From the NCBI RefSeq assembly GCF_029227855.1, contig NZ_CP074356.1: a DNA stretch of 64,000 nt. One strand, given 5' to 3'. Below the pieces are notes generated by a model, which worked only from the letters and a program-made list of their open reading frames with translations, had not been told where the DNA came from and did no database searches. The position numbers were made by a program, and so were the translations under genes. The DNA comes from Escherichia coli. Lineage in GTDB: Bacteria; Pseudomonadota; Gammaproteobacteria; Enterobacterales; Enterobacteriaceae. Below are positions 1 through 56,393 of the stretch, one piece after another. Position 1 is the stretch's first letter, and the number at the start of each line of letters is the position of its first letter.

Positions 1-1
1 C

Positions 2-2974
2 GCTGCGGACCGGATCATCCGCTGGTCCGATAACGACCAGACGTGGAGCCGTTTCACCTACGATGAACAGGGCCGGTGCGTGAATGTCACCGGGGCGGAG
101 GGCTATTACAACGCCACGCTGGACTATGGTGACGGCTGCACCACCGTGACGGACGGCAAGGGCATTCACCGTTATTACTATGATCCTGACGGCAATATTC
201 TGCGGGAAGCAGCGCCGGACGGCAGCACCACCACGTATGAATGGGATGAATTCCATCACCTGCTGGCCCGTCACTCCCCTGCCGGGCGGGTGGAGAAATT
301 TGAATACAACGCCGCACACGGTCAGTTAAGCCGTTACACGGCGGCAGACGGCGCGGAGTGGCAGTACCGCTATGATGAGCGCGGCCTGCTCAGCAACATC
401 ACCGACCCTGCCGGGCAGACGTGGACACAGCAGTGTGATGAACGCGGCCTGCCGGTAAGTCTGGTGTCGCCACAGGGCGAAGAGACCCGGCTGGCATACA
501 CCGCTCAGGGGCTGCTGTCGGGAATATTCCGCCAGGATGAACGGCGTCTGGGCATAGAGTACGACCACCACAACCGGCCGGAAACACTCACCGACGTGAT
601 GGGCCGTGAACACCACACCGAATACAGCGGTCACGACCTGCCGGTGAAGATGCGCGGCCCCGGCGGTCAGTCAGTGCGGTTGCAGTGGCAGCAGCACCAT
701 AAACTGAGTGGCCTTGAGCGCACTGGCACCGGCGCGGAAGGGTTCAGCTATGACCGCCACGGCAACCTGCTGGCCTGGACGGACGGCAATGGTGTTGTCT
801 GGACAATGGAGTACGGCCCGTTCGATTTGCCGGTGGCGCGAACGGACGGTGAAGGCCACCGCTGGCAGTACCGCTATGATAAAGACACGCTGCAACTGAC
901 AGAAGTCATTAACCCGCAGGGTGAGTCATATCTTTATGTTCTGGATAACTGCGGCCGGGTGACGGAAGAGCATGACTGGGGCGGCGTGGTCTGGCGTTAC
1001 CGCTATGACGCCGATGGCCTGTGTACCGCCAGGGTCAACGGCCTGGAGGAAACCATCCTCTACAGCCGGGACGACGCAGGCCGCCTGGCAGAAGTCATCA
1101 CGCCGGAAGGCAAAACGCAGTATGCGTATGACAAATCCGGCAGGCTGACGGGTATCTTCAGCCCGGACGGCACATCACAGCGCACCGGCTATGACGAACG
1201 CGGGCGGGTGAATGTCACCACTCAGGGCCGACGGGCCATTGAATACCACTACCCCGATGAACACACCGTCATCCGCTGTATCCTGCCACCGGAAGATGAA
1301 CGCGACAGACACCCCGGTGAATCCCTGCTGAAAACCACGTACCGCTACAACGCAGCCGGAGAACTGGCAGAGGTCATCCTGCCGGAGGATGAGACGCTGA
1401 CGTTCAGCCGTGATGAGGCAGGACGTGAAGTGCTCCGGCACAGTAACCGGGGTTTTGCCTGTGAGCAGGGCTGGAATGCAGCCGGTCAGCTTACCAGCCA
1501 GCGCGCCGGACTTTTCCCGGCAGAAGCCACATGGGGCGGGCTGCTCCCCTCACTGGTACGGGAGTACCGTTACGACAGCGCGGGCAATGTGTCGGCTGTC
1601 ACCAGCCGGGAAGATTACGGACGGGAAACTCGCCGGGAGTACCGGCTGGACCGGAACGGCCAGGTCACGGCGGTGACAGCCTCAGGCACCGGGCTGGGCT
1701 ATGGCGAAGGCGATGAGTCCTATGGCTATGACAGTTGTGGCTACCTGAAGGCGCAGTCTGCGGGCAGGCACCGGATAAGTGAAGAGACTGAGCGGTATGC
1801 CGGAGGCCACCGGCTGAAACAGGCCGGAAACACGCAGTATGACTATGACGCCGCAGGCCGGATGGTCAGCCGCACCAGACACCGTAACGGCTATCGCCCG
1901 GAAACAGAGCGGTTCCGGTGGGACAGCCGGGACCAGCTGACCGGGTATTGCAGCGCACAGGGTGAACAGTGGGAATACCGCCACGACGCCAGCGGCAGAC
2001 GGACGGAAAAACGCTGCGACCGGAAGAAAATCCGCTTCACGTACCTGTGGGACGGCGACAGTATTGCGGAAATCCGGGAATACCGCGATGATAAACTGTA
2101 CAGCGTAAGGCACCTGGTGTTTAACGGCTTTGAGCTGATAAGCCAGCAGTTTAGCCGGGTACGGCAGCCGCACCCGTCCGTGGCCCCGCAGTGGGTGACG
2201 CGGACGAATCATGCGGTGAGCGATCTGACGGGCCGTCCGCTGATGCTCTTTAACAGTGAAGGTAAAACCGTCTGGCGACCGGGACAGACCAGCCTGTGGG
2301 GGCTGGCACTCAGCCTGCCCGCGGACACCGGCTACCCGGACCCGCGCGGGGAACTGGACGCGGAAGCCGACCCCGGCCTGCTGTATGCAGGACAGTGGCA
2401 GGATGCGGAATCCGGGCTGTGCTATAACCGGTTCCGGTATTACGAGCCGGAAACAGGGATGTACCTGGTGAGTGATCCGCTGGGGTTGCTGGGGGGTGAG
2501 CAGACTTACCGGTATGTGCCGAATCCGTGTGGGTATGTTGATCCTTTGGGATTAGCAACATGTCCCATAATCAGACAACGGGTGCTGGCTAACCTTGAAG
2601 CCAGTCGGGCAGCAAGGGCTGCATCTAATTTTGGTAAGAAAAATATCTATGATTTTATCAAGGCAACTCAATCTGCTATCCCTGGCACCTCTATCCCAAA
2701 ATCTTTTGAGATTATAACTGCTAATGGTACTTTCTGGGTACACCCAAATGCTACAAAACATATGGCTGAATATTTGACTCGGAACGGTCTCTCACATTCA
2801 ACTTCTGTAGAGAGCCAAATAATGTTAACAAGTTTTCACGAAGCTGTAAGTTTGGCTAGTGCTCAAGGTATAAAGTATGAAGAAATGATGAATGTTGGCG
2901 GCTGGGAACTAGTATTTAGTCAAGCTAAATCTGACTCGGCTTTATCAGTTATTAAACATGCTCTTTATAAATGA
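2..2974 (+). CDS. Rhs-family polymorphic toxin, 5'-truncated by the window edge; YD-repeat core ending in a DPLGL motif, then a ~140-aa C-terminal toxin domain of unassigned family
   Basis: The reading frame is open from position 2 to the stop at 2974. Repeated YDxxGR(L/V) motifs run throughout, and the core ends with RYYEPETGMYLVSDPLGL...YVDPLGL followed by a lower-GC extension (ATCPIIRQ...KHALYK). Confidence 0.85.
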   Translation, partial: AADRIIRWSDNDQTWSRFTYDEQGRCVNVTGAEGYYNATLDYGDGCTTVTDGKGIHRYYYDPDGNILREAAPDGSTTTYEWDEFHHLLARHSPAGRVEKFEYNAAHGQLSRYTAADGAEWQYRYDERGLLSNITDPAGQTWTQQCDERGLPVSLVSPQGEETRLAYTAQGLLSGIFRQDERRLGIEYDHHNRPETLTDVMGREHHTEYSGHDLPVKMRGPGGQSVRLQWQQHHKLSGLERTGTGAEGFSYDRHGNLLAWTDGNGVVWTMEYGPFDLPVARTDGEGHRWQYRYDKDTLQLTEVINPQGESYLYVLDNCGRVTEEHDWGGVVWRYRYDADGLCTARVNGLEETILYSRDDAGRLAEVITPEGKTQYAYDKSGRLTGIFSPDGTSQRTGYDERGRVNVTTQGRRAIEYHYPDEHTVIRCILPPEDERDRHPGESLLKTTYRYNAAGELAEVILPEDETLTFSRDEAGREVLRHSNRGFACEQGWNAAGQLTSQRAGLFPAEATWGGLLPSLVREYRYDSAGNVSAVTSREDYGRETRREYRLDRNGQVTAVTASGTGLGYGEGDESYGYDSCGYLKAQSAGRHRISEETERYAGGHRLKQAGNTQYDYDAAGRMVSRTRHRNGYRPETERFRWDSRDQLTGYCSAQGEQWEYRHDASGRRTEKRCDRKKIRFTYLWDGDSIAEIREYRDDKLYSVRHLVFNGFELISQQFSRVRQPHPSVAPQWVTRTNHAVSDLTGRPLMLFNSEGKTVWRPGQTSLWGLALSLPADTGYPDPRGELDAEADPGLLYAGQWQDAESGLCYNRFRYYEPETGMYLVSDPLGLLGGEQTYRYVPNPCGYVDPLGLATCPIIRQRVLANLEASRAARAASNFGKKNIYDFIKATQSAIPGTSIPKSFEIITANGTFWVHPNATKHMAEYLTRNGLSHSTSVESQIMLTSFHEAVSLASAQGIKYEEMMNVGGWELVFSQAKSDSALSVIKHALYK

Positions 2975-3504
2975 CGATTATGCTTACATTAGAAAATGAA
3001 ACAAACTACAAAGATGTTGTTGTTAATATAGATGAATTTGTACCTTTTGATATAACTTTTGGAAAGGGGAGCGAACAGTGTTTGTACTGGAGAGGCGGCA
3101 ATGGTAAAAGTTCTTTGGTTGAAGTTGGGTTAAATATGTACAGCGGAGAAGTAAGTAACATCACACTAGCAAATATCGATTCAGGTGAAATTAACATTAC
3201 AGATGAGATGTTAGCCAACAACCTTCCTGAAATACAAGGGTCTGTTATATTTCAGACAAGCGAGTGGCTTAATAAAGACATTTCCGAATACTCAAACAGA
3301 TTTATTGATGATTTTGATTGCAATATCAAGTTAATAATTGGTAGTAATTACATTAAATTATTATTTAAAAAAGCAACAAATCCCATTTGTTATATCATTA
3401 ATAGGAATATAAGATTTGGTTTTTCTTTGAGTAGGGAACTTTCGACATTGGAAATATTAGACCTCAATCAAGAAAAATTAGATATTCTAAAGTTATTTAA
3501 ATAG
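2971..3504 (+). CDS. Putative cognate immunity protein for the upstream Rhs toxin domain
   Basis: A 177-aa ORF whose ATG overlaps the toxin stop (ATGA at 2971-2974). It is AT-rich and sits immediately downstream of the toxin, the usual toxin-immunity arrangement. Confidence 0.55.
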   Translation: MTIMLTLENETNYKDVVVNIDEFVPFDITFGKGSEQCLYWRGGNGKSSLVEVGLNMYSGEVSNITLANIDSGEINITDEMLANNLPEIQGSVIFQTSEWLNKDISEYSNRFIDDFDCNIKLIIGSNYIKLLFKKATNPICYIINRNIRFGFSLSRELSTLEILDLNQEKLDILKLFK

Positions 3505-3995
3505 TTTTAGTGTTTGAAACTTACCGAGAGATGATAGCTATGAATGAATACAAAAACATCCATCTTGGAGGAAACAATGGAATGTTAATCCATTAAAAAA
3601 CATACTTCAATATCTTTAGTGAAGAAAGAGTTGTATGAAAGAAATATATCTTATGTGAGCGACATGATGCATGCTAATTATATTATTGGCCGGAAATTTT
3701 ATGATGATAGCAAAAAGGAGGGGTTATTTCTGTAAGAATGGATATACCCGCAGGGTTTGAACCAGACATTTATTTGTTGAAGTCTAAGATCCAAATGGAA
3801 GCATTTATATCCCTCAGATATTATGCGTTGACGGGTTGATAAAGATACTTTTAGAGGGTTAATAAATGGAGAACGTATAATAAATCTCTTAAACAAACTA
3901 TAACCTGTACTAATGAAAAAAATGGGAATAGATAAGTTAATAGCCTATTCTAAAAATGGTAAAGTGGTTTTACTTCCAAAATAATGGAGTTTAGT

Positions 3996-4427
3996 ATGAA
4001 AATCGAAGCTAATTCCCTTACTCATCCCTATGACTACAACGCCTCACTGAACAATTATTTACATTATTTTGAGAATTTCTCTCGTAATGACTGGAATAAA
4101 GATTCATGTGGAGGATATTTTACTTTTAGAGATGATGACAGAGAGTGTGTTTTGTTTTTTGTGAATTATGGTGATAATTTTTCATTGCGCTATGATTGTA
4201 CACAAAGTTCTGATGGAATAGTGTCATGCTGGTATAGTAACCATGAAGATGATAAAATGAATATCATCGTCGATGCTGATACAGAACAATTTATCCCTTT
4301 AGGTTCTTGCTTACCTCCTGATATTACTTTATCAGTAATAAAAGATTTTTTCAAAAATCCTTTAGAGAAATCAAAAAAAGTAAAATGGATGAATGCAGAT
4401 GACATTGACTGGTCATCTGTGTATTAA
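3996..4427 (+). CDS. Hypothetical protein, possible orphan immunity protein
   Basis: An ORF of ~143 aa (from MKIEANS; an upstream ATG at 3984 is also possible) with AT-rich composition, lying in the island downstream of the Rhs toxin. No recognisable catalytic motif. Confidence 0.4.
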   Translation: MKIEANSLTHPYDYNASLNNYLHYFENFSRNDWNKDSCGGYFTFRDDDRECVLFFVNYGDNFSLRYDCTQSSDGIVSCWYSNHEDDKMNIIVDADTEQFIPLGSCLPPDITLSVIKDFFKNPLEKSKKVKWMNADDIDWSSVY

Positions 4428-5289
4428 AGTTGGATTGGATAATTATCTGTTTCAAAAATCATTAAATTTAGAACCTATCTGTTCAACAGAGCTGCCTTGA
4501 ACAGCAGGTTCTTTTATGATGTCCAGGAGCGAATATGCCTGTGATGTCTGGCACTCAGCATCTGACTGACCTGGACTACTGATCCTACTCACACAGGGAG
4601 CTAGACCTGGAAGCAACCTACTGTAAGCAGTGCAGTAGCAGCCCACCTCACATCAGTCCTTGCAAGGTGTGGGCCTTTGTGATCTTGCTCTGTATTGCTG
4701 AGATCCTCAGGAAGGACTCGAAATTTAATCAGGAAGGCCGTTGCTAAAAATCAAAAAATAAATTCAAGAGCAATTTCTAAAACTTTTGAATCTACTGTAT
4801 CGGATGAGGTTTTCACTCCTTTCCAAAAGGTGAGTTTTCAAGCATTCAAGTTTCTGTTATGACCAAAACTTCACCATTTAACACTAATCCGAGTATTATG
4901 TTACCATGAAGAAAAAAGATATTAGATTTGCAATATCCATTAACTCCAACTCAAGTAAGATAGAATTAATGGAAAAATTAAAAACATAATCCCAGGGCTT
5001 ATTGAAATAACTCCCAGTGCATTAAGAGAAGAAAAAACATGGTAGTTATTGAAGATAATGATCTTTATGACTCTATAAAAGCAGAGGGAGTTGATGGATG
5101 GATGTATTATAAATTCATATTATCCATATTCCCATTAAAGGGAGTAGACACAACATTAGAATATCAACGGAAATTATCTTTTCTTTTCTTAAAGAAATTA
5201 AAAGATGCGGGTCTGTTAGGTGAACTTATATGCGAGGATGATTTTCATGACTGATGACCTCTACATATATCCTCAGTTCGTGGCTGGTA

Positions 5290-5631
5290 TTACATGATCT
5301 GACAGGGAAAGATCGTAGCGAAATCAAAAAAGACGTGGATTTCCCGGAAGCCGGTGAAGACACGGCGCTCTGCGACAAGGAGACTAAACCGCCGAGGATA
5401 GCCCAGGGCAGCAGCAACGTTTTTATCAACAATCAGCCTGCCGCACGCCAGGGAGACAAACTGGAGTGCAGTGCGGCGATCGTGGAAGGTTCGCCGGACG
5501 TCTTTATTGGGGGTGAGCAGGTCACCTATCTGGATATCCAGCCGGAGTTCCCGCCGTGGCAGAGAATGATCCTGGGGGGAATAACGATAGCCAGCTATCT
5601 TCTGCCGCCAGCGCAGGGAAAGATCACGTAA
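5290..5631 (+). pseudogene. PAAR-domain fragment, probably the C-terminal part of the N-terminal PAAR region of a T6SS-type Rhs or PAAR protein
   Basis: A GC-rich segment inside the 5254..5631 ORF encodes IAQGSSNVFINNQPAARQGDKLECSAAIVEGSPDVFIGG, matching the PAAR motif pattern. The composition shifts abruptly near 5290, and no credible N-terminus or Rhs core follows. Confidence 0.5.
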
Positions 5632-5700
5632 CGCTGCTTTTTTGTACTAAATAATTCGCACTAAATGTTCAATAATTGAGATATTCCTTATTACCTAAAT
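5614..5700 (+). repeat. Direct repeat copy 1 (~90 bp; cagggaaagatca...tttgtactaaataattcgca...gatattcc.tattacctaaa)
   Basis: About 80% identical by eye to 7645..7738. It lies at the 3' junction of the PAAR fragment. Confidence 0.6.
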
Positions 5701-5750
5701 ACAGTTCCACCAAGATTACCTAAACCCAAATGAGGTAAAAGATAGTGGGT

Positions 5751-6112
5751 ATGAATAAAAATGAAATCCATTTCCCTATAGGATATGGTTGGTTGAATGA
5801 AAAAAAATTATTGGCACCAGTGAATTTAGCCAATTAGAACCATGGTTTTATCTAGATGAGAACAGGTGTTTTTTTGCGAATAAAAAATGGCCAAATGTCA
5901 TAGGTGAACAATTATTCGCTTTTGCTAAACGTCAAGATAATGATGAATTGGCTTGTTTCAAAATTAATGAATCTGGAGTCTGTGAGGGTGTTTATTTAAT
6001 TAATGGGTGGACTCCTAACGGGTTTGATATTATACAATTTTACCCTGATTTTTGGGAATGGGTACATTTGGTTATACAAGATGTCTCGGAGTGGATTGAT
6101 AATAAAGGATAA
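5751..6112 (+). pseudogene. Frameshifted immunity-like gene; any family resemblance (e.g. SMI1/KNR4-like) is tentative
   Basis: ATG at 5751 gives MNKNEIHFPIGYGWLNEKKLLAPVNLAN then a stop. The +1 frame continues KKIIGTSEFSQLEPWFYLDENRCFF...EWIDNKG to 6112. The frame break coincides with an A8 homopolymer near 5803-5810. Confidence 0.35.
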
Positions 6113-6141
6113 TTTGAAACAAAAGTAAAAAACCGCCTTCA

Positions 6142-6840
6142 TTGAAGGTAACGTGGAGTGGTGGGCGGAGCAGCCTGCCCGCAGACACAGACTACCCGGA
6201 CCCGCGCGGGGAGCGGGACGCGGAAGCCGACCCCGGCCTGCTGTATGCAGGACAGTGGCAGGATGCGGAATCCGGACTGTGCTATAACCGGTTCCGGTAT
6301 TACGAGCCGGAAACCGGGATGTACCTGGTGAGTGATCCCCTGGGGTTGCTGGGGGGTGAGCAGACTTACCGGTATGTGCCTAATCCTAGTGGGTATGTTG
6401 ATCCTCTGGGATTAGCAACGTGTCCTATACTCAGACAGTGGGCGCTGACTAACCTTGAAGCCAGTCGGGCAGCAAGGGCTGCATCTAATTTTGGTAAGCC
6501 TCTGGTCCAGCGAAATAAAACGATTGGCGATAAAGTAAGGGATATGATTGCCAAAGAGAGGGGAACCACTCTAATTGAACAAAATTATAGAGTGACAGGA
6601 GGATTAAAGCGTATTGACGTTGTTGATGGAGTAACGGGTATAGAATCTAAAGTCGATCGAACAGGGTTAACAACCCGAGTACGGCAAGAGGTAGCGCGGG
6701 ATATTAAGATTTTGAGAAGTGAGCAACTTGATCAAATTGAATGGGTGTTTACAAGAAGTTCAACTACAGGGAAGATTGGGCCAACTAAACCACTTGAAGA
6801 TCTTTTAAATAAACATGGTATACCGATTATTTATCGATAA
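6142..6840 (+). CDS. Orphan Rhs C-terminal module: core-end repeat (DPLGL) plus an alternative toxin domain, possibly a PD-(D/E)xK-like nuclease
   Basis: Positions ~6176-6500 are near-identical to 2310-2630 (the end of the first Rhs core plus 26 codons). The sequences then diverge into a different C-terminal domain containing RIDVVDGVTGIESKVDRTG. The reported ATG at 6142 is probably not the native start. Confidence 0.7.
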   Translation: MKVTWSGGRSSLPADTDYPDPRGERDAEADPGLLYAGQWQDAESGLCYNRFRYYEPETGMYLVSDPLGLLGGEQTYRYVPNPSGYVDPLGLATCPILRQWALTNLEASRAARAASNFGKPLVQRNKTIGDKVRDMIAKERGTTLIEQNYRVTGGLKRIDVVDGVTGIESKVDRTGLTTRVRQEVARDIKILRSEQLDQIEWVFTRSSTTGKIGPTKPLEDLLNKHGIPIIYR

Positions 6841-6851
6841 GGAGTGATAGT

Positions 6852-7409
6852 GTGAAACTCAAACCGATTGGTGACTTTTTAAACAAAAATGGGTTTATAA
6901 AAAATGGTAACAATGATTTTTATAAAGTTCATGATAAGTTTGTAAATTGTATAAATTTTCAAAAAAAGAGTACAGGTGATATTTTTTTTATAAACACAGG
7001 TGTTCATCCTGTGTTCGAAAATTTTTGCAATGAACCACCGAAAAAAGAAATAGATTGTTACATCCGTAACCGTGTGTGTGATGGACTAAGTATATCTTTG
7101 CTGCATTCTTTTGAAGGTAGTGAGTTTGTTATCAGTGAGATAAAAAACAAAGCGTTTTGTTTTTTTGAATACTTTGATTCATTGAATAAAATATTCGATG
7201 CTATTCGTGTTGTAGATATTGAAGAGAGAAATATTTGCGATGAGCTAAGTGGTGTAAGCAGCGTAAGATTAGCTTTGATGTGTATGAACTACCAGTATGA
7301 GAAAAAAAAATTTAGCCTTGTTTCTGATTTTGCGAACTATGGTCTTGCTATATCTAGAGGCCCGGTACCGAAAAAAGCATTTAAGGATATGATAAAAATA
7401 ACAGAGTGA
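6852..7409 (+). CDS. Putative immunity protein for the orphan Rhs toxin module
   Basis: A 185-aa ORF with a GTG start 12 bp after the toxin stop, preceded by AGGAG at 6841-6845. AT-rich. Confidence 0.5.
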   Translation: MKLKPIGDFLNKNGFIKNGNNDFYKVHDKFVNCINFQKKSTGDIFFINTGVHPVFENFCNEPPKKEIDCYIRNRVCDGLSISLLHSFEGSEFVISEIKNKAFCFFEYFDSLNKIFDAIRVVDIEERNICDELSGVSSVRLALMCMNYQYEKKKFSLVSDFANYGLAISRGPVPKKAFKDMIKITE

Positions 7410-7419
7410 TACCTAATCC

Positions 7420-7650
7420 GGTGTAATACTTGCTGCCTGTGTACCGCGAAGATTAACGGCCGGGAGGAAACTATTCTCTACAACCGGGACGCCACAGGCC
7501 GCCTGGCAGAAGTCATCACGCCGGAAGGCAAAACGCAGTATGCGTATGACAAATCCGGCAGGCTGACGGGTATCTTCAGCCCGGACGACACATCACAGCG
7601 CACCGGCTATGAAGAACGCGGGCGGGTGAATGTCACCACTCAGGGCAGGG
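7420..7650 (+). pseudogene. Internal Rhs core fragment
   Basis: About 215 bp nearly identical to 1021-1230 of the first Rhs core (encoding ...EETILY..RLAEVITPEGKTQYAYDKSGRLTGIFSPD...). Homology is lost at the cagggaaagatca junction. Confidence 0.6.
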
Positions 7651-7738
7651 AAAGATCATCCAAAGTACACTTTTTGTACTAAATAATTCGCATTTTATGT
7701 TTAAAAATGGAGATATTCCTCATTACCTAAAGCTGTTT
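7645..7738 (+). repeat. Direct repeat copy 2 (~90 bp), immediately upstream of the ISAs1-family transposase
   Basis: Matches 5614..5700 in sequence. It may be the left end of the H-repeat element or a recombination scar. Confidence 0.6.
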
Positions 7739-7739
7739 T

Positions 7740-8940
7740 TTATTGCTTATACATGATCAAATACTCCTTACATAATTAAGGAGAACAAAATGGAACTTAA
7801 AAAATTGATGGAACATATTTCTATTATCCCCGATTACAGACAAGCCTGGAAAGTGGAACATAAATTATCGGATATTCTGCTGTTGACTATTTGTGCCGTT
7901 ATTTCGGGTGCAGAAGGCTGGGAAGATATAGAGGATTTTGGGGAAACACATCTCGATTTTTTGAAGCAATATGGTGATTTTGATAATGGTATTCCTGTTC
8001 ACGATACCATCGCCAGAGTTATATCCTGTATCAGTCCTTCAAAATTTCACGAGTGTTTTATTAACTGGATGCGAGATTGCCATACTTCAGATGATAAAGA
8101 CGTCATCGCAATTGATGGAAAAACACTCCGGCATTCTTATGACAAGAGTCGCCGCAAGGGAGCGATTCATGTCATTAGTGCGTTCTCAACAATGCACAGT
8201 CTGGTCATCGGACAGATCAGGACGGATGAGAAATCCAATGAAATTACAGCTATCCCTGAACTTCTTAACATGCTGGATATTAAAGGAAAAATCATCACAA
8301 CTGATGCGATGGGTTGCCAGAAAGATATTGCAGAGAAGATACAAAAACAGGGCGGTGATTATTTATTCGCTGTAAAAGGAAACCAGGGGCGGCTAAATAA
8401 AGCCTTCGAGGAAAAATTTCCGCTGAAAGAATTAAATAATCCAGAGCATGACAGTTACGCCATTAGTGAAAAGAGTCACGGCAGAGAAGAAATCCGTCTT
8501 CATATTGTTTGCGATGTCCCTGATGAACTTATTGATTTCACGTTTGAATGGAAAGGACTGAAGAAATTATGCGTGGCAGTCTCTTTTCGGTCAATAATAG
8601 CAGAACAAAAGAAAGAGCCAGAAATGACGGTCAGATATTATATCAGTTCTGCTGATTTAACCGCAGAGAAGTTCGCCACAGCAATCCGAAACCACTGGCG
8701 CGTGGAGAATAAGCTGCACTGGCGTCTGGACGTGGTAATGAATGAAGACGACTGCAAAATAAGAAGAGGAAACGCCGCAGAATTATTTTCAGGGATACGG
8801 CACATCGCTATTAATATTTTAACGAATGATAAGGTATTCAAGGCAGGGTTAAGACGTAAGATGCGAAAAGCAGCCATGGACAGAAACTATCTCGCGTCAG
8901 TCCTTGCGGGGAGCGGGCTTTCGTAATCTTGCCCTGCGTT
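7740..8940 (+). mobile_element. ISAs1-family (H-repeat) insertion element; boundaries approximate
   Basis: Contains one intact transposase ORF. The terminal inverted repeats could not be delimited by eye. Confidence 0.4.
7790..8926 (+). CDS. ISAs1-family transposase (H-repeat-associated protein; YhhI/YdcC/YbfD-like)
   Basis: A 378-aa ORF ([32 protein letters not shown]...[31 protein letters not shown]) recognised as the H-repeat protein family found inside Rhs elements. Confidence 0.85.
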
Positions 8941-50708: not shown

Positions 50709-50823
50709 TGAGGGACGTATTTGTATTAGTCGCGACTTGATCTGACACATGGCCTTGAAAGGTTGAGAGTTACCGGTTTTGATATGAGTGTCGAATCCTT
50801 ATCCAAAACAAGAGGTAACTCTC

Positions 50824-51195
50824 ATGCTTCATACTGCCAATCCCGTCATCAAACACAAAGCCGGTTTGCTCAATCTGGCTGAAGAACTCAGCAACGTATC
50901 AAAAGCCTGTAAAATCATGGGCGTTTCGCGTGAAACGTTTTATCGTTACCGCGAACTGGCCGCTGAAGGCGGTGTGGATGCGCAGATTAATCGTAGTCGC
51001 CGCGCTCCTAACCTTAAGAACCGTACCGATGAGGCAACTGAACAGGCTGTTGTTGATTACACCGTCGCTTTCCCGACACATGGTCAGCACCGGGCCAGCA
51101 ACGAGCTGCGTAAACAGGGGGTTTTTATCTCCGACAGTGGTGTCCGTTCTGTCTGGTTACTCCATAACCTTGAGAATCTCAAAAGACGATACTGA
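50824..51195 (+). pseudogene. ylbG: ylbG-like helix-turn-helix fragment (N-terminal remnant of an IS-type transposase/regulator)
   Basis: About 123 aa from MLHTANPVIKHKAGLLNLAEEL, an HTH-only protein with no catalytic domain. Confidence 0.6.
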
Positions 51196-51261
51196 ACAAA
51201 TTTTATCAGGTGACGTTCCGTAAAAAGTTGTATGGAGTTCTCGATGCAGTCGGCGCGACTA

Positions 51262-51343
51262 TCAGTACCCCCGCTGAACCCTGGACTATCGGGCCGCCGT
51301 ACTGGAGCATGTCACCCTGGCGTGCCGCTGGTTTTCCGCTAAT
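51262..51343 (-). pseudogene. Remnant of an Rhs 5' end (PAAR-like N-terminal codons), start codon lost
   Basis: About 80 bp resembling 56315-56393, the first ~25 codons of the full-length Rhs, with ATG replaced by ATT and a stop after ~40 codons. Confidence 0.45.
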
Positions 51344-51709: not shown

Positions 51710-52201
51710 TTACTCTGCACAAGCATCAGGCAATCCAGCTCCAATATTTGTTATAAAATAATGCGTAACATTAATTTCACCAACAAAAAAAAGGTTTACG
51801 CTATCCCCTTGCCCTGGTATTTTACCATATTTACACCACACTTTTTTTGTATCTGGATCATTCTCTGATACGATTTTCGCCACTTGTTCCCTGGCCCTCA
51901 CCGTCAATGTTTTCTTAAACCTCCCCCCATCATCGATTGTTAGGGAAAAATAAGAAAAAAAATAATCACCTTCTACATTTGTGGATATTGATATATCCAC
52001 CGCTACATGCGGAAAAAAATCTGGGAGCCATGTAAAAACCCCATCACTTTCTGGTATTGCCATATAGTTTATGTAATGCTTACTTACAAGAGATTCATCT
52101 TTGTGTAAATAAAGATAAGTAGTCACGCATAAAAAAACAACGATTATAATAGCAAAAATAAATATTACCATCTTTGAGATGTTACTTGAGATAGCCAGCA
52201 T
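51710..52201 (-). CDS. Putative immunity protein for the rhsD-locus Rhs toxin, with an N-terminal transmembrane helix
   Basis: An AT-rich ORF of 153-163 aa directly downstream of the Rhs stop, overlapping it or separated by ~10 bp depending on the start. Hydrophobic segment [21 protein letters not shown]. Confidence 0.55.
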
Positions 52202-55200
52202 CTTGTAAAGCCTTTATCGTTTTTTTATGCTCTGGATTAATATAATCAATACATCTATTTGAGCAATCTTGTGTTAATGGACATGTCAACCCATGTTCAT
52301 TTACAGCCAAGTCTTTTTTATTATCTTCAATCATCTCAGAATGGGATAACTTTACTTTTCTGCCGTACATACCGAACATATTTAACCCGTAATCTCTAAT
52401 CTCTTTTTCATAACCCAGCCCTTTCGCTGATCGGCTAACACCAGCGTCATTTAATTTAGACACTCGACAAAATGCCATACAATGGAAAAATTGATCAGTC
52501 CCACCTAAATTTAATCTCTTCATATCATCATAAGTATCAGATAATATATCCCATGCTCTTTGATGGTTTAGTTGTTCTTTTTTTCGCATTAACGCTACAT
52601 CTGCAGGACTTAACCCTAATGGATCAATACCATTCACCGGATTCAGCGGATACGCATACAGACTCCATCCCCCCGCCAGCCCAATCGGGTCCTGAGCAAT
52701 ATATCGTCCCAGCAACGGATTGTAGTACCGGTTCCGGTTATAATACAGCCCTGACTCCTCATCGTGTTGCTGCCCTGGCAGACGGTACGGCTGGTGCAGG
52801 TGATGCGGGTTTTCCTCATTCAGCAGGTTTCCCCACTCATCATACTCCCCGCTCCACGCCGTATTGCCGTCTTCGCTGATGAGCGCCAGCGGCAGCCCCC
52901 GGTGGTCACAGTGATAAAGATGAATTTTTCGCTCAGGTAAATAAACCGGCTCTATCTGTGCCGCCAGCCGCTCCACCGTCAGCCCGCACTGTGCCAGCCA
53001 CTGGCGGCTTTCACTGCTCACGCGGTCTGCCCGGATTTCCCCCTCCAGCCTGTCCAGCAGCCGCACCAGTTCAGCCGGGAACACCACGCCGTGTCCGTCC
53101 TCGCTCCCTTCCTGCTGGAGCTTCTCCGCCAGGCTGCGGCGCTGCGCTTTCTCCCGCTCGCCGTTCTCTGTCTCGACCCGGATGAGCGGCGTGAAGCTTC
53201 CCGGCTGGTACACCGTCTGGATACGCGTGGTGTCGGTCTGTACTGTCGCCAGCCTGTCGCCGTCCCACCCGTACCACGTTACCTCCGGTTTACGCGACAG
53301 CGACATCCACCCCGTCAGGTCACGCTCCCGCCGCCATACCCGTTTCGCCATTCGCCATCCCAGCGGGTCGTAGAGGTAGCGGCTCTCGACCAGTGGCTCG
53401 CCATGCTGTATCCGCGTGTAGAACACCAGGCGGTGCTGGCTGTCGTAGTGGTAGTGGTGGGTCCGCTCGTCGTCCGTCCGTATCACACCCGCCGGGATGC
53501 GGTCCGTCTTCTCTGTCAGCCTGCCGTATTCATCGTGGCGGTAGACATAGTGCGCATCCTCCGCGATGCGGTTATCCGGCCACGCCGTGAGTGTACTGTC
53601 CGGGTGCAGCTCCGGGTCCGGCAGCCGGTTGCCCGCCGGGTCCGTGGCATACGGGATGCGGATGTCCAGGTCCGGTGCGAGGGTGCGTACACTCGCCAGC
53701 CTGCCCGTGGCACTGTAGCCGTATTCCCGCGTCTGTCGCGGGCCGCTGATGCGCACAAGGTCGCCGTTGTCATTCCACCCGTAGTCACGGTCATACACCA
53801 GGCTGTTCAGGTGCTGGCTCTGTAACTGGCCTGCAGGGGTGTATGTGCTGGTCAGTTCGTATGCGGCATTACTGCCTGCCATGCTGCCAAAGCTGCGCAC
53901 CGTTTCTCTGTGCAGGCGGTCGCGCGCGTACTCCAGCAGCGGCGTGTCGCCCAGCTTCATGCCCGCCAGATAACCGCTACCGTAGGTCAGCCACTCCACC
54001 GGCGGCAGGCTGTCCGGCGTGACGCGGTTTGCCAGCCCCTGTTCGTTGTATGCCTGTTTCGTCTCATGCTGCCACAGCAGTTCCCCCGTCTCCGGGTTCT
54101 TCACCGTCTGGTGCTCACTGGTCAGACGGCCTTTATCGTCATAGCCGTAGTGGACCGCCACACGGTGGCCTTCGCTCAGGTGGCTGATTTCTCTCAGCCA
54201 GCCGTGGCCATCATACTGCCACTGCTCTGCCGGTTCGCCGTTCACCGTGCGGTGAGTGAGGCGGTCCGATTCGTCGTAGTGCCAGAGGGTGACAAGCCCC
54301 TCATCTTCACTCTGCGTGAGTTTTCCGGTCAGGTCATAATGATAACGTTGCGTCCGCCCGTCAAAGCCGCTCTGCTGTACCAGCCGGTCCAGTGCGTCGT
54401 AACGGAAGGCGCTGTCACTGCCGTTCTCGTTGGTCAGCGTGGCGACACGTCCTGCCGCGTCATACTCCATACTGCGCGTCAGCCCGCCCTGCGTGGTGCT
54501 GACCGCTTTTCCCCACGCATCGTACTGTGTCTCGCTCCGGTTGCCGCCCGGGGTGATAACGGCAGTCAGGTCGCCTGCGGCGTTGTACTCATACTGCGTT
54601 TCACGGCCCTGTGCGTCTTTCACCGAGGTTAACCGGCCACGGTTGTCATAGTGGCGGTAAAGGCTGATGCCTTCCTCGCGGTGGACCGCCGTCATCTGGC
54701 CGAAGCGGTCATACTCATAGCGGGTCTGGTAGCCCGAGCAGTCGGTGAACGCCAGCAACTGACCGTAGCGGCTCCAGGTCATCTGCCGGGTGCTGCCCGT
54801 CGCATCTGTTGTCGTGGCCGGTAATTCACTGTGCGGATTATCATAAGCATACCGGATGACGTCCCCACTGCGCGATGTCTCCGATACCAGCCTGTCCCGC
54901 TCATCATACGCCCGGCGGCTCTCCAGCCCGTCCGGGTACACCACCGCCGTCACCAGGTTCCCGTCGTTATAGTAAAATTTCGTCTCCCGCCCGTCCGGCG
55001 TGGTGATGTCCGTGATGTCGCCTGACACCACATTCAGACCGTACTCTGTCCGCCGTCCCGCCGCGTCCGTCTGCGCCGTAAGCCGCCCCACCGGGTCATA
55101 CCCGCTGCGCGTGACGCTGCCGTCCGCCAGTTCTTTTTTCACCACCCGCTTCAGCCCGGCCCCGCCTTCTGTATGCAGCACCTCACGCCGGTTCAGGCTG

Positions 55201-56393
55201 TCCGTGACGGTGATGCGGTCCTGCTCATACTGGTAGCGGTAACTCAGGCCTGCCGGGTTCAGCTGCTCCACCACCCGCCCCGCATCGTCGTAGCGGTAGC
55301 GCATCTCCGGCCTTCCCGCGTAACGGTGCGCCACCATCCGGCCCGGGTGCTGCGCGTCATACGTGAAAGCGCGCACCTGCGTATTGCTGCGGTCATATAC
55401 CGCCAGCAGTTCACCGGCTTCCGTATACGTGTACCGCACCAGTGGCGCACCGGGCAGGCTCTCCGGGTATGCCGGGTCGTGCATCAGCCACACCGCCGAA
55501 AGACGGATGCCCCTGTCGGGGCCGTATTCGGTACCGGGCAGTGTGTCGGGGAACGCTGAGGCTGAAAGAGGGCGGGGGGTGTCAGGGGAAAATAAGGAAG
55601 CGGTGTGCTGTTTACGGGCCTCTTCCGCCCGCTGCGCCTGCGTGGTCAGCACCAGACGGAACTCCCGCCCGGCACCGTCCGTCACGCCGGTGATTTCCCC
55701 GGCCAGGTCACCGGCGGCCTCACGCCGGTACGTCAGCGTCTGCCCGAAGCGGTCCGCCAGCCCGGTAAGCACCCGGTACGGCGGCAGCGGCGCTGGCAGT
55801 ACGTCCTCAGTGCCCGGCACCCGCTCTGACCACCCCAGTATCCACCACGGTCCCTGTGCGCTGTTGGTCGCCAGGTAAAGATGCGGGCTTAACCGGATAT
55901 CCGGCGGCAGCGACGCCCACAGCCGTGCCAGCGTGTGGCCGTCCGGCTGCGCTGCCTTACCACCGCGAACCAGCCACATTGACTCGCTGCGGCTGTACAC
56001 CGCCCCCCCCGGCAGCAGCGGCTCAAAGTGAATGCTCCGTCCGCCGTTGTCGTTGAGTACCAGTGCATCATCGCGTATCTGTAAGCGGATATCAGAAGGC
56101 GCTTTCCAGCCGGGGCCAAAAATCCCCACCGGCGCAGGCGTCTTCGTCCGGTAGCTGCTGTAGGTGCGGGAGAGAATGAACGGCAGCGGGCCGGGCAGCG
56201 CAAGGTCCGTCTCGCCGGGCAGCACCTTCGCCCCCAGCAGCGGATTTACCGGGTTGCCCGAAGTCATCCTGCCCGGACACACCGAGCACGCCACGCCGGT
56301 GGGCGCGCCAATTCTTACACCTGCCGAACCCTGGACAATGGGACCGCCATACTGAGTCATATCTCCCTGACGCGCCGCTGGTTTTCCGCTCAT
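52182..56393 (-). CDS. Full-length Rhs polymorphic toxin at the K-12 rhsD position, with a Cys/His-rich C-terminal toxin domain of unassigned family
   Basis: 1403 aa with a PAAR-like N-terminus [33 protein letters not shown], extensive YD repeats, a DPIGL...DPLGL core end, then a ~145-aa tail with a compositional drop. It lies next to ybbP, as rhsD does in K-12. Confidence 0.9.

What the first reader, a model, noticed from the sequence alone, without database searches (positions are those of the whole stretch)
51710..52620. rhsD-locus Rhs carries a Cys/His-rich toxin tip with a membrane-anchored immunity candidate
After DPLGL the tail reads [13 protein letters not shown]...[16 protein letters not shown]...[25 protein letters not shown], which is cysteine/histidine-rich and suggests metal binding or a Cys-His catalytic pair. 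I cannot assign a family. The downstream AT-rich ORF has an N-terminal transmembrane helix. Only one downstream immunity-like ORF is present before ylbG.
Basis: partly seen in the sequence, partly recalled or inferred. Interest (0 to 1): 0.55.

Follow-up and report, generated by a model that had tools for sequence, protein, structure and literature searches.

The report
Serum-amyloid-A-like Rhs toxin with immunity
The tip of this E. coli Rhs protein is a bacterial relative of human serum amyloid A, a toxin family described by computer analysis in 2025. It is paired with a membrane-anchored immunity protein, and the same module sits in about half of all E. coli genomes, so it is a real but already catalogued kind of toxin whose chemistry nobody has tested.

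Summary
A 1403-aa Rhs protein (52182..56393, -) ends in a 142-aa AT-rich tail after DPLGL. A 163-aa ORF with one N-terminal transmembrane helix follows (51710..52201, -).

The tail can be assigned to a family. It is a prok-SAA domain of the Lipocone superfamily (eLife 2025). A 75-sequence family profile hits only serum amyloid A in the PDB (E 1e-15). The AlphaFold model (pLDDT 96) matches only SAA structures.

The invariant residues are D39, H43, E70, D100, N104 and G107, which include the predicted Lipocone active site. The cysteines are not a metal or Cys-His site. They covary as two disulfide pairs, C44-C120 and C48-C116, in 57 of 61 published family members. Only one of the five histidines is conserved.

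The ORF is YbbD (Pfam YbbD_head). TM- or lipoprotein-anchored ORFs sharing its motif follow all six diverged Rhs-SAA toxins examined, which points to action in the periplasm.

The module is not strain-specific. It is the K-12 orphan pair ylbH/ybbD at 96.5% identity, present in 2727 of 5426 complete genomes. It is fused to a full-length rhs, as here, in 964 of them.

The mechanism is untested. It is either lipid head-group cleavage or OmpA binding.

The parts
52182..56393 (-). Full-length Rhs protein, 1403 aa: DUF6531 header, RHS repeats, RHS core, then the toxin tip
   Evidence: ORF. Pfam hits: DUF6531 at residues 46-123 (E 6e-18), at least 10 RHS_repeat hits, and RHS core PF03527 at 1157-1193 (E 5e-17). 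The PAAR hit is only faint and partial (E 0.29). The DNA is 100% identical to WP_275877351.1 'RHS element core protein' of strain JNEC-KY178.
52639..52890 (-). Last 252 nt of the conserved rhs core. K-12 has this stretch twice, at the end of rhsD and as the core remnant at the start of orphan ylbH, so it is the likely recombination substrate.
   Evidence: blastn: window 57500..52639 matches K-12 rhsD up to the end of its core (94.4%), and window 52890..50001 matches K-12 from ylbH onward (96.9%).
52611..52625 (-). DPLGL motif, the Rhs self-cleavage and demarcation motif that precedes the toxin tip
   Evidence: Sequence. The role of the motif is established knowledge for Rhs/Tc proteins; a paper with 'autocleavage' in its title was listed (PMC8636562) but I did not open it. 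The GC break is at about 52640.
52185..52610 (-). 142-aa toxin domain of the prok-SAA family (Lipocone superfamily). Six helices. Invariant D39, H43, E70, D100, N104, G107. Cys 44/48/116/120 are predicted to form two disulfides.
   Evidence: Pfam SAA i-E 2.5e-4 for the tail alone, and 54 of 75 relatives at E<=1e-3. Family profile against PDB hits only SAA, E 1.1e-15. AlphaFold2 pLDDT 96.4. Foldseek top 7 PDB hits are all SAA. Close relatives appear in the eLife Prok-SAA list. Conservation. Cysteine covariation.
51710..52201 (-). ybbD, 163 aa: predicted cognate immunity protein, intact here. One TM helix followed by a YbbD_head domain that is predicted to face the periplasm.
   Evidence: NCBIfam NF011298, 370 bits against a cutoff of 326, covering residues 1-163. 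The 98%-identical cluster representative P0136 carries Pfam PF26610, which names YbbD_head. RefSeq calls it 'YbbD family protein'. The same motif is found downstream of 6 of 6 diverged Rhs-SAA toxins.
52109..52180 (-). Transmembrane anchor of YbbD, about residues 8-31 ([24 protein letters not shown])
   Evidence: The Kyte-Doolittle 19-residue mean is at or above 1.9 for every window starting at residues 1-16, with a maximum of 3.03.
51249..51343 (-). 95-nt remnant of an rhs 5' end ([20 protein letters not shown]..), debris of the Rhs element
   Evidence: 78% identical to the rhs start codon region. Annotated as a partial pseudogene.

Best explanation
This is a two-gene polymorphic-toxin module at the classical rhsD locus.

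The Rhs shell carries a 142-residue C-terminal domain, which by analogy with other Rhs proteins is released by self-cleavage at DPLGL. This domain is a bacterial serum-amyloid-A homologue of the prok-SAA family (SAA-Wnt clade of the Lipocone superfamily).

It is most likely delivered by a type VI secretion system into the periplasm of neighbouring E. coli. There two disulfides, C44-C120 and C48-C116, would lock helix 5 onto helix 2. The pocket formed by H43, E70, D73, D96/D100 and N104 would then attack a phosphate-linked lipid head group. The best guess for the substrate is an undecaprenyl-diphosphate-linked cell-envelope intermediate, as for the distant relative TelC, and the result would be a block in envelope synthesis.

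YbbD is held in the inner membrane by one helix, with its YbbD_head domain in the periplasm. It would bind and neutralise the toxin in the producing cell and its kin.

The gene arrangement is an rhs core joined directly to the CT/immunity pair that K-12 keeps as a silent orphan (ylbH/ybbD). It is explained by recombination across the 252-nt repeat of the core end, with loss or absence of the RhsD-CT/ybbC pair.

Shown here: family membership, fold, conserved residues, cysteine covariation, toxin-immunity synteny, anchoring of the immunity protein, and population distribution.

Inferred: self-cleavage, T6SS delivery, periplasmic site of action, disulfide formation, and the enzymatic reaction with its substrate.
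For: Rhs architecture.

SAA homology:
- Pfam SAA is the only significant hit for the tail.
- The 75-sequence profile hits SAA chains at E 1.1e-15 to 2.7e-8 and nothing else below 0.1.
- 54 of 75 relatives hit Pfam SAA, best 1.4e-26.
- The full-length Rhs P0101 carries a precomputed Pfam SAA hit.

Fold:
- AlphaFold2 pLDDT 96.4, pTM 0.89, six helices.
- The top 7 Foldseek PDB hits are mouse SAA3 and human SAA1 at probability 1.0 and target-normalised TM about 0.7; the next hits have probability below 0.15.
- AFDB50 returns Rhs tips, MuF-fused and standalone bacterial proteins, then animal SAAs.

Active site: D39, H43, E70, D100, N104 and G107 are invariant, and D73 and D96 are at least 95% conserved, in 75 sequences that are 21-93% identical to the tail. 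These match the His (helix 2), Glu (helix 3), Asp/Asn (helix 4) pattern and the sNxxG motif described for the clade.

Published family: near relatives HAU8267270.1 and WP_074823867.1 (DQFFHC.AFCRVSK) are in the eLife Prok-SAA source data. The paper lists T6SS and RHS contexts and a TM-anchored 'Imm-SAA'.

Disulfides: 57 of 61 published sequences fit the C44-C120 and C48-C116 pairing, with no cross-type cases.

Immunity:
- YbbD matches NF011298, and the 98%-identical P0136 carries Pfam PF26610, named YbbD_head.
- ORFs following six diverged Rhs-SAA toxins all share GW[IL]P.f.P..s.NI...nlD.N after a TM helix (4 cases) or a lipoprotein signal (2 cases).
- An HMM built from four members recovers L009 at E 5e-7 and L003 at E 0.007.
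- The paper notes that all Lipocone immunity proteins are TM or lipoproteins, and that TelC is toxic only outside the cytoplasm.

Solubility: the tail is soluble, GRAVY -0.68.

Recombination.

Distribution.

T6SS in the strain: a vgrG, Eag-like gene and rhs island lies 45 kb away in the same strain.
Against: - No prok-SAA toxin has ever been assayed. TelC, the only characterised Lipocone toxin, belongs to a different clade.
- The clade motif sNxxGR lacks its Arg here (VNEHGL). Arg is found in only 8 of my 75 sequences.
- No T6SS gene flanks this rhs; its neighbours are ybbP, ybbA and tesA. Its N-terminus gives only a faint partial PAAR hit. K-12 keeps Rhs genes without any T6SS.
- The YbbD Cys pair is conserved in only about 5 of 8 immunity sequences.
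- The periplasmic orientation of YbbD rests on lipoprotein homologues and on charge distribution, not on an experiment.
Confidence: 0.6

Rival explanations
1. The module and the compartment are the same, but the toxin is not an enzyme. Like the Bacteroides fragilis T6SS effector BteO, it would use its helical groove to bind the peptidoglycan-binding C-terminal domain of OmpA-family proteins and so upset cell-wall and outer-membrane homeostasis. YbbD would protect by occupying the same groove.
For: - BteO is toxic only in the periplasm and has a secreted immunity protein.
- The residues whose mutation abolishes BteO toxicity are R143/H144, H167/E168, D187 and D191. They come in the same order as the invariant H43, (K)E70, D96/D100/N104 here, and the two Asp have the same i/i+4 spacing.
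- Human SAA is reported to bind E. coli OmpA (cited in the eLife paper).
Against: - There is no sequence-level link: the family profile does not find 9uu0 even at E 10.
- Strict invariance of a His/Glu/Asp/Asn set across 21-93% identity looks more like a catalytic site than a protein-binding surface that must track a target.
- The BteO study tested only glycosidase and amidase activity, not lipid-linked substrates, so BteO itself may be an unrecognised Lipocone enzyme.
- YbbD shows no OmpA-like Pfam hit.
Confidence: 0.2
2. The tail would be a cysteine/histidine metal-binding domain or a Cys-His catalytic-dyad enzyme such as a papain-like peptidase.
For: - There are five Cys and five His in 142 residues.
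- There is a weak Pfam Peptidase_C7 hit, E 0.03-0.07.
- H43 and C44 are adjacent and both invariant in my 75-sequence set.
Against: - Four of the five His are not conserved.
- C44 is replaced by Ala, Ser or Thr in 13 of 61 published family members, always with H43 kept. In 9 of those 13, C120 is lost as well.
- Animal SAA and some bacterial members have no cysteines at all yet keep H/E/D/N.
- The fold is an all-helical SAA bundle, not a papain or zinc-finger fold.
- The Peptidase_C7 hit is seen in 0 of 75 members at E<=1e-3.
Confidence: 0.04
3. The locus is decaying Rhs debris with no current function. The tip and ybbD would simply be hitch-hiking, as the K-12 pseudogene annotation of ylbH/ybbD suggests.
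For: - K-12 carries the same DNA as an orphan lacking the rhs N-terminus, with ybbD frameshifted by a 1-nt deletion in a T-run.
- IS and Rhs fragments lie next to it.
- No T6SS genes are adjacent.
Against: - Here both ORFs are intact, and the tip is in frame with a complete 1403-aa Rhs.
- The same fused arrangement is found in 964 complete genomes, including O157:H7 and O111 strains.
- All family-invariant residues are present.
- YbbD matches its NCBIfam model end to end and above the cutoff.
Confidence: 0.1

Closest known systems
prok-SAA family, SAA-Wnt clade of the Lipocone superfamily (Burroughs, Nicastro, Aravind, eLife 2025, PMC12419801)
   Same: - Helical core with a short fifth helix.
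- Invariant His (helix 2), Glu (helix 3), and Asp...Asp...Asn-x-x-Gly (helix 4).
- Soluble domain.
- Found as the tip of RHS, T6SS and MuF polymorphic toxins with TM- or lipoprotein-anchored immunity proteins.
- Close enterobacterial relatives of this exact tail are in the paper's sequence list.
   Different: - This enterobacterial subgroup has Leu instead of the motif Arg (VNEHGL).
- It has a longer helix 3-helix 4 loop ([13 protein letters not shown]).
- It ends in an extra helix, [20 protein letters not shown], in place of the 'YRPxGLP.Y' ending shared by other bacterial members and animal SAA.
- The searchable text and supplements of the paper do not name ylbH, ybbD or YbbD_head.
- No member of the family has been tested experimentally.
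Animal serum amyloid A (SAA1/SAA3; PDB 4ip8, 6pxz, 4q5g)
   Same: Homologous by profile (E 1e-15 to 1e-12) and by fold (Foldseek probability 1.0, target-normalised TM about 0.7). The shared motifs are MR.AN..G.DKYFH, RE, and D...D..AN..G.
   Different: SAA is a secreted acute-phase apolipoprotein with no cysteines, no Rhs carrier and no immunity gene. The E. coli tail has two predicted disulfides and about 35 extra residues.
E. coli K-12 orphan pair ylbH / ybbD (rhsD locus)
   Same: It is the same DNA: 96.5% identity over 1297 nt. The toxin parts differ at 10 of 142 residues. The flanks are the same: the rhs 5' fragment, ylbG and mnmH.
   Different: In K-12 the module is an orphan behind rhsD-ybbC, lacks the Rhs N-terminus, and has ybbD broken by a -1 frameshift. 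Here it is joined to a complete rhs, ybbD is intact, and the RhsD-CT/ybbC pair is absent.
TelC / TipC of Streptococcus intermedius (lipid II phosphatase; prok-TelC Lipocone family)
   Same: It is the only biochemically characterised Lipocone toxin. It is active only outside the cytoplasm, has a membrane/periplasm-side immunity protein, and is assigned by the eLife authors to the same superfamily with the same active-site logic.
   Different: It belongs to a different clade and uses a different carrier (LXG/T7SS, Gram-positive). I found no direct sequence or Foldseek match from this tail. The substrate of the E. coli toxin is unknown.
BteO / BtiO of Bacteroides fragilis (PNAS 2025, PMC12541434; PDB 9UU0)
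   Different: No sequence similarity is detectable. BteO is a standalone effector with its own TM helix, not an Rhs tip. It is reported as a non-enzymatic binder of the OmpA C-domain.

Membership tests
Rhs / YD-repeat polymorphic toxin | RHS/YD repeats forming the shell, plus the conserved RHS core domain | tested here: met
   Pfam RHS_repeat hits in multiple copies, and RHS PF03527 at residues 1157-1193, E 5e-17.
Rhs / YD-repeat polymorphic toxin | A DPxGL-type motif separating the conserved core from a variable C-terminal tip of different base composition | tested here: met
   DPLGL lies at 52611..52625. GC drops from 0.60-0.65 to 0.35 at about 52640. K-12 rhsD diverges at exactly this point.
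Rhs / YD-repeat polymorphic toxin | A small immunity gene immediately downstream of the tip | tested here: met
   ybbD overlaps the rhs stop by 20 nt. Synteny is conserved in 6 of 6 diverged loci.
Rhs / YD-repeat polymorphic toxin | An N-terminal PAAR or other adaptor linking the protein to a T6SS spike | tested here: inconclusive
   The PAAR_motif hit covers only residues 3-20 at E 0.29, and DUF6531 is present. No T6SS genes are adjacent. The strain has a vgrG-Eag-rhs island 45 kb away.
prok-SAA (Lipocone superfamily, SAA-Wnt clade) | Significant profile similarity to SAA / prok-SAA sequences | tested here: met
   The family profile hits SAA chains in the PDB at E 1.1e-15. 54 of 75 members hit Pfam SAA. 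Near relatives are listed in the published Prok-SAA set.
prok-SAA (Lipocone superfamily, SAA-Wnt clade) | A four-helix cone plus a short fifth helix packed between H2 and H4 | tested here: met
   The model has pLDDT 96.4 with helices at 2-33, 39-51, 56-78, 90-108, 116-123 and 129-137. Only SAA structures match, at target-normalised TM about 0.7. Packing of H5 against H2 is supported indirectly by the Cys covariation. I could not inspect coordinates.
prok-SAA (Lipocone superfamily, SAA-Wnt clade) | Conserved polar triad: His (H2), Glu (H3), Asp/Asn (H4), plus an acidic residue at the end of H3 | tested here: met
   H43, E70, D100 and N104 are invariant, D73 is 71/75 and D96 is 72/75.
prok-SAA (Lipocone superfamily, SAA-Wnt clade) | The sNxxGR motif in helix 4 | tested here: inconclusive
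   The tail has V-N-E-H-G-L: the small residue, Asn and Gly are present and Arg is absent. Arg is present in only 8 of 75 of my sequences, mostly those nearest to animal SAA.
prok-SAA (Lipocone superfamily, SAA-Wnt clade) | A soluble (non-membrane) domain | tested here: met
   GRAVY is -0.68 and the maximum 19-residue hydropathy is 0.55.
prok-SAA (Lipocone superfamily, SAA-Wnt clade) | Cleavage or exchange of phosphate-linked lipid head groups | not testable with these tools
   This is predicted for the superfamily. It has been shown only for TelC and PTDSS1/2.
YbbD family / Pfam PF26610 YbbD_head (immunity) | Match to the curated family model over its full length | tested here: met
   NF011298: E 1.2e-111, 370 bits against a cutoff of 326, residues 1-163 of 163. 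The 98%-identical P0136 carries PF26610. The Pfam library available to profile_search did not return this family.
YbbD family / Pfam PF26610 YbbD_head (immunity) | Extracytoplasmic anchoring by a TM helix or lipobox | tested here: met
   The window protein has a TM helix. Homologues at L003, L005, L007 and L008 have a TM helix with basic residues on its N-terminal side. L004 (LSGC) and L009 (LSAC) have lipoprotein signals.
YbbD family / Pfam PF26610 YbbD_head (immunity) | Neutralises the cognate toxin | not testable with these tools
   This is inferred from conserved gene order only.
BteO-like non-enzymatic OmpA-binding effectors | Structural similarity to BteO | tested here: inconclusive
   [not shown]
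BteO-like non-enzymatic OmpA-binding effectors | Sequence relatedness to BteO | tested here: not met
   The profile does not find 9uu0 at E<=10.
   Only H43 of the 5 His is conserved. The Cys covary in pairs and are dispensable in relatives that keep H/E/D/N.

The most novel reading that the evidence does not exclude
The E. coli tail, BteO and animal SAA may share one mechanism that current papers describe in incompatible ways. One possibility is that the H/E/D groove of the SAA fold is a protein-binding surface for OmpA-type peptidoglycan-binding domains, in which case prok-SAA toxins are non-enzymatic. The other is that BteO is an unrecognised Lipocone enzyme and the 'non-enzymatic' label is wrong.

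This toxin is carried by half of all E. coli, and K-12 is a natural immunity-defective target. It would therefore be the tractable system to settle what the SAA fold actually does.
Probability: 0.2. Interest if true: 0.7.

Novelty: new member of a known kind. Interest (0 to 1): 0.4.

Why it matters
The most widespread Rhs toxin module of E. coli is a homologue of human serum amyloid A, an acute-phase protein whose molecular activity is still debated. In K-12 the module survives as the pseudogene pair ylbH/ybbD. In O157:H7 and about 960 other complete genomes it is the active tip.

Three things follow from this.
- Two long-unannotated K-12 genes get a function.
- K-12, whose ybbD is frameshifted, should be sensitive to strains like this one.
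- It offers an easy genetic system (toxin, immunity, point mutants, a DsbA dependence test) for deciding between the predicted lipid head-group chemistry of the Lipocone superfamily and the OmpA-binding mode reported for BteO and for SAA itself.

The family-level idea is already published, so the gain is in assignment and testability, not in a new kind of system.

Tried and rejected
- NCBIfam on the tail gave no family.
- Pfam on YbbD gave nothing useful in the library available to me. The YbbD_head name came only from precomputed annotations.
- The first AlphaFold run, with a 5-sequence alignment, was poor (pLDDT 66.9). I replaced it with the 75-sequence run.
- Pairwise BLASTP between YbbD and the ORFs downstream of diverged toxins was near noise, and those ORFs hit no NCBIfam model. 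The relationship rests on a shared motif, a small HMM (L009 at E 5e-7, L003 at E 0.007, L008 and L004 not significant) and Pfam annotations for L005 and L007.
- A literature search for ylbH/ybbD found no functional study. Searches for YbbD_head, PF26610 or 'SAA-like toxin' found only the Lipocone paper.
- I checked whether the weaker NCBIfam hit NF007301 meant the K-12 rhsC orphan pair ybfO/ybfC is a paralogue. It is not: no match to either HMM.
- The contig look-up for P0032 failed.
- My first count of fused versus orphan arrangements was confounded because the tool joined the two K-12 pieces. A shorter 801-nt query solved this.
- My first regular expression for the cysteine table mis-parsed nine sequences. 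The corrected count is.
- I considered a nuclease reading because one AFDB entry is named 'Deoxyribonuclease RhsC'. I rejected it as name propagation: there is no nuclease family hit, and the immunity protein is extracytoplasmic.


Full report
**What is there.**

On the minus strand a 1403-aa ORF (52182..56393) has the standard Rhs build. It carries a DUF6531 header, many RHS repeats and the RHS core domain at residues 1157-1193. After ...[11 protein letters not shown] the sequence changes character.

A 163-aa ORF (51710..52201) starts 20 nt before the rhs stop. It has one very hydrophobic segment near its N-terminus. Nothing else that could encode a protein lies before the ylbG remnant, only a 95-nt copy of an rhs 5' end (51249..51343).

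**Where it comes from.**

The window is 100% identical to E. coli JNEC-KY178. The flanking genes (ybbP, ybbA and tesA on one side; ylbG, mnmH, allS and allA on the other) show this is the classical rhsD locus.

In K-12 the locus reads rhsD - ybbC - ylbH - ybbD - ylbG. The window's core matches K-12 rhsD only up to the end of the conserved core (94.4%). From 52890 downward it matches K-12 from ylbH onward (96.9%). The two matches overlap in a 252-nt stretch that K-12 has twice.

So the tail and the ORF are not the K-12 RhsD tip and ybbC. They are the K-12 orphan pair ylbH/ybbD, here joined to a full-length rhs. This is what recombination across the repeated core end would produce.

K-12 ybbD differs by a 1-nt deletion in a run of T at ORF position 240, which truncates it. 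The window copy is intact.

The module is present in 2727 of 5426 complete E. coli genomes. The fused arrangement is present in 964, among them O157:H7 and O111 strains. It is therefore common, not strain-specific.

**What the tail is.**

- Pfam gives one significant hit for the tail, serum amyloid A (i-E 2.5e-4 to 5.8e-4).
- A profile search of 1.84 billion representative proteins found 116 relatives.
- Seventy-five near-full-length domains, 21-93% identical to the tail, align with human SAA1 over the whole domain.
- The profile of these 75 hits only SAA chains in the PDB (E 1.1e-15 to 2.7e-8).
- Fifty-four of the 75 hit Pfam SAA on their own, best 1.4e-26.
- With this alignment AlphaFold2 gives a confident six-helix model (pLDDT 96.4, pTM 0.89).
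- The top seven Foldseek matches in the PDB are all mouse SAA3 or human SAA1, at probability 1.0 and target-normalised TM about 0.7. After them the list drops to noise.
- AFDB50 returns Rhs tips from Escherichia, Shigella, Hafnia, Salmonella, Gallibacterium and Delftia, small Xanthomonas proteins and MuF-fused proteins, then animal SAAs.

This is the 'prok-SAA' family of the Lipocone superfamily defined by Burroughs, Nicastro and Aravind (bioRxiv and eLife 2025). They list it among toxin tips of polymorphic toxins in T6SS, RHS and MuF contexts. They predict that it cuts or exchanges phosphate-linked lipid head groups. Two sequences in their Prok-SAA source file (HAU8267270.1 and WP_074823867.1) are obvious close relatives of this tail. 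The family is thus known, and this subgroup is already inside it. The paper's searchable text and supplements do not mention ylbH, ybbD or YbbD_head.

**The residues.**

Invariant across my 75 sequences are D39, H43, C44, E70, D100, N104, G107, C116 and C120. Nearly invariant are M30, C48, D73 and D96. H43, E70 (with D73) and D100/N104 correspond to the His (helix 2), Glu (helix 3) and Asp/Asn (helix 4) positions that the paper proposes as the active site. The A/V-N-x-x-G part of the clade motif is present, though the Arg that usually follows is Leu here. The other four histidines of the tail are not conserved.

I tabulated 61 sequences from the published prok-SAA list:
- 25 have all four cysteines.
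- 21 have only C44 together with only C120.
- 9 have only C48 together with only C116.
- 2 have none.
- There is not a single mixed case, and only 4 sequences do not fit.

Cys 44/48 lie one helical turn apart on helix 2, and Cys 116/120 lie one turn apart on helix 5. This pattern is what two disulfides stapling antiparallel helices would give. Animal SAA lacks all of them but keeps the polar set. The cysteines are therefore structural, and they argue for an oxidising compartment. A metal site or a Cys-His dyad is not supported.

**The immunity protein.**

The ORF matches the NCBIfam YbbD model end to end and above its cutoff. Its 98%-identical cluster representative carries Pfam PF26610, named YbbD_head.

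I examined the gene after six diverged Rhs-SAA toxins whose tips are 24-53% identical to this one.
- Two carry the precomputed YbbD_head annotation (L005, L007).
- All six share the motif GW[IL]P.f.P..s.NI...nlD.N, placed just after either a transmembrane helix (L003, L005, L007, L008) or a lipoprotein signal with a lipobox (L004 LSGC, L009 LSAC).
- A four-sequence HMM recovers L009 at E 5e-7 and L003 at E 0.007. L004 and L008 rest on the motif alone.

The lipoprotein versions place the domain outside the cytoplasm. The TM versions have basic residues before the helix. This agrees with the paper's statement that all Lipocone immunity proteins are membrane or lipoprotein-anchored, and with the finding that TelC is toxic only outside the cell.

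**How it most likely works.**

- Shown here: an Rhs carrier, an SAA-fold tip with an intact conserved polar pocket, two covarying cysteine pairs, and a conserved toxin-immunity gene pair with an extracytoplasmic immunity domain.
- Inferred from established knowledge of Rhs and T6SS: self-cleavage at DPLGL and delivery by a T6SS into the target periplasm.
- Inferred from the Lipocone analysis: attack on a phosphate-linked lipid head group, with undecaprenyl-PP-linked envelope intermediates as the leading candidates by analogy with TelC.

No T6SS gene is adjacent, and the PAAR signal is only a faint remnant. The strain does carry a vgrG - Eag-like - rhs island 45 kb away, whose rhs runs into the start of the window.

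**A rival worth taking seriously.**

The residues needed for its toxicity are R143/H144, H167/E168, D187 and D191. They come in the same order as H43, K69/E70 and D96/D100/N104 here, and the two Asp show the same i/i+4 spacing. Human SAA is also reported to bind OmpA.

**Verdict.**

This is a real toxin-immunity module that was correctly spotted. It belongs to a family that is already catalogued but biochemically untested, and it is widespread in E. coli.

The value lies in three things: giving ylbH/ybbD a function, the disulfide and immunity evidence for periplasmic action, and the link to BteO and SAA, which makes the mechanism question directly testable in K-12.

Noticed in passing
window 1..8926 (+): The window begins inside a second, unrelated Rhs gene (3' part at 1..2974). 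Its upstream neighbours, just outside the window, are a T6SS vgrG and a DcrB-related (Eag-type) gene. It is followed by a gene annotated 'RNA-binding protein' (2980..3504, a likely immunity gene), a PAAR fragment (5314..5613), an Rhs fragment (6172..6427), a DUF4304 gene (6852..7409) and an ISAs1 transposase (7790..8926). This looks like an orphan toxin/immunity array inserted between cusS and nfrB.
   Followed up: partly
window 51249..51343 (-): A 95-nt fragment, 78% identical to the first codons of rhs ([20 protein letters not shown]), lies between ybbD and ylbG. It is also present in K-12 and annotated as a partial pseudogene.
   Followed up: partly
L001 6496..6986 (K-12 W3110), homologous to window 51710..52201: K-12 ybbD is split by a single-base deletion in a T-run at ORF position 240, while the K-12 ylbH toxin part is intact (10 differences in 142 residues). 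K-12 therefore probably lacks immunity to this toxin.
   Followed up: yes
[not shown]
   Followed up: partly
AFDB entry A0ABD7W963 (E. coli), 92% identical to the window tail: A protein carrying this SAA-like tip is named 'Deoxyribonuclease RhsC' in UniProt/AFDB. Others are named 'type IV secretion protein Rhs'. Both look like names propagated from other Rhs proteins.
   Followed up: no
L005 / L006 (CP029992.1 and DAJBZT010000018.1), around 1800..5700: In another enterobacterial genome the SAA-like tip (P0031, 53% identical) is an orphan within a longer array: an Ntox16 fragment, DUF6714, the orphan Rhs-SAA tip, YbbD_head, then TseH and Imm58.
   Followed up: no
window 50788..51195 (+): This ORF, with a helix-turn-helix N-terminus, is the ylbG remnant: a truncated IS-type transposase/HTH gene annotated as a pseudogene. 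It marks the edge of the Rhs element next to mnmH (selU).
   Followed up: no
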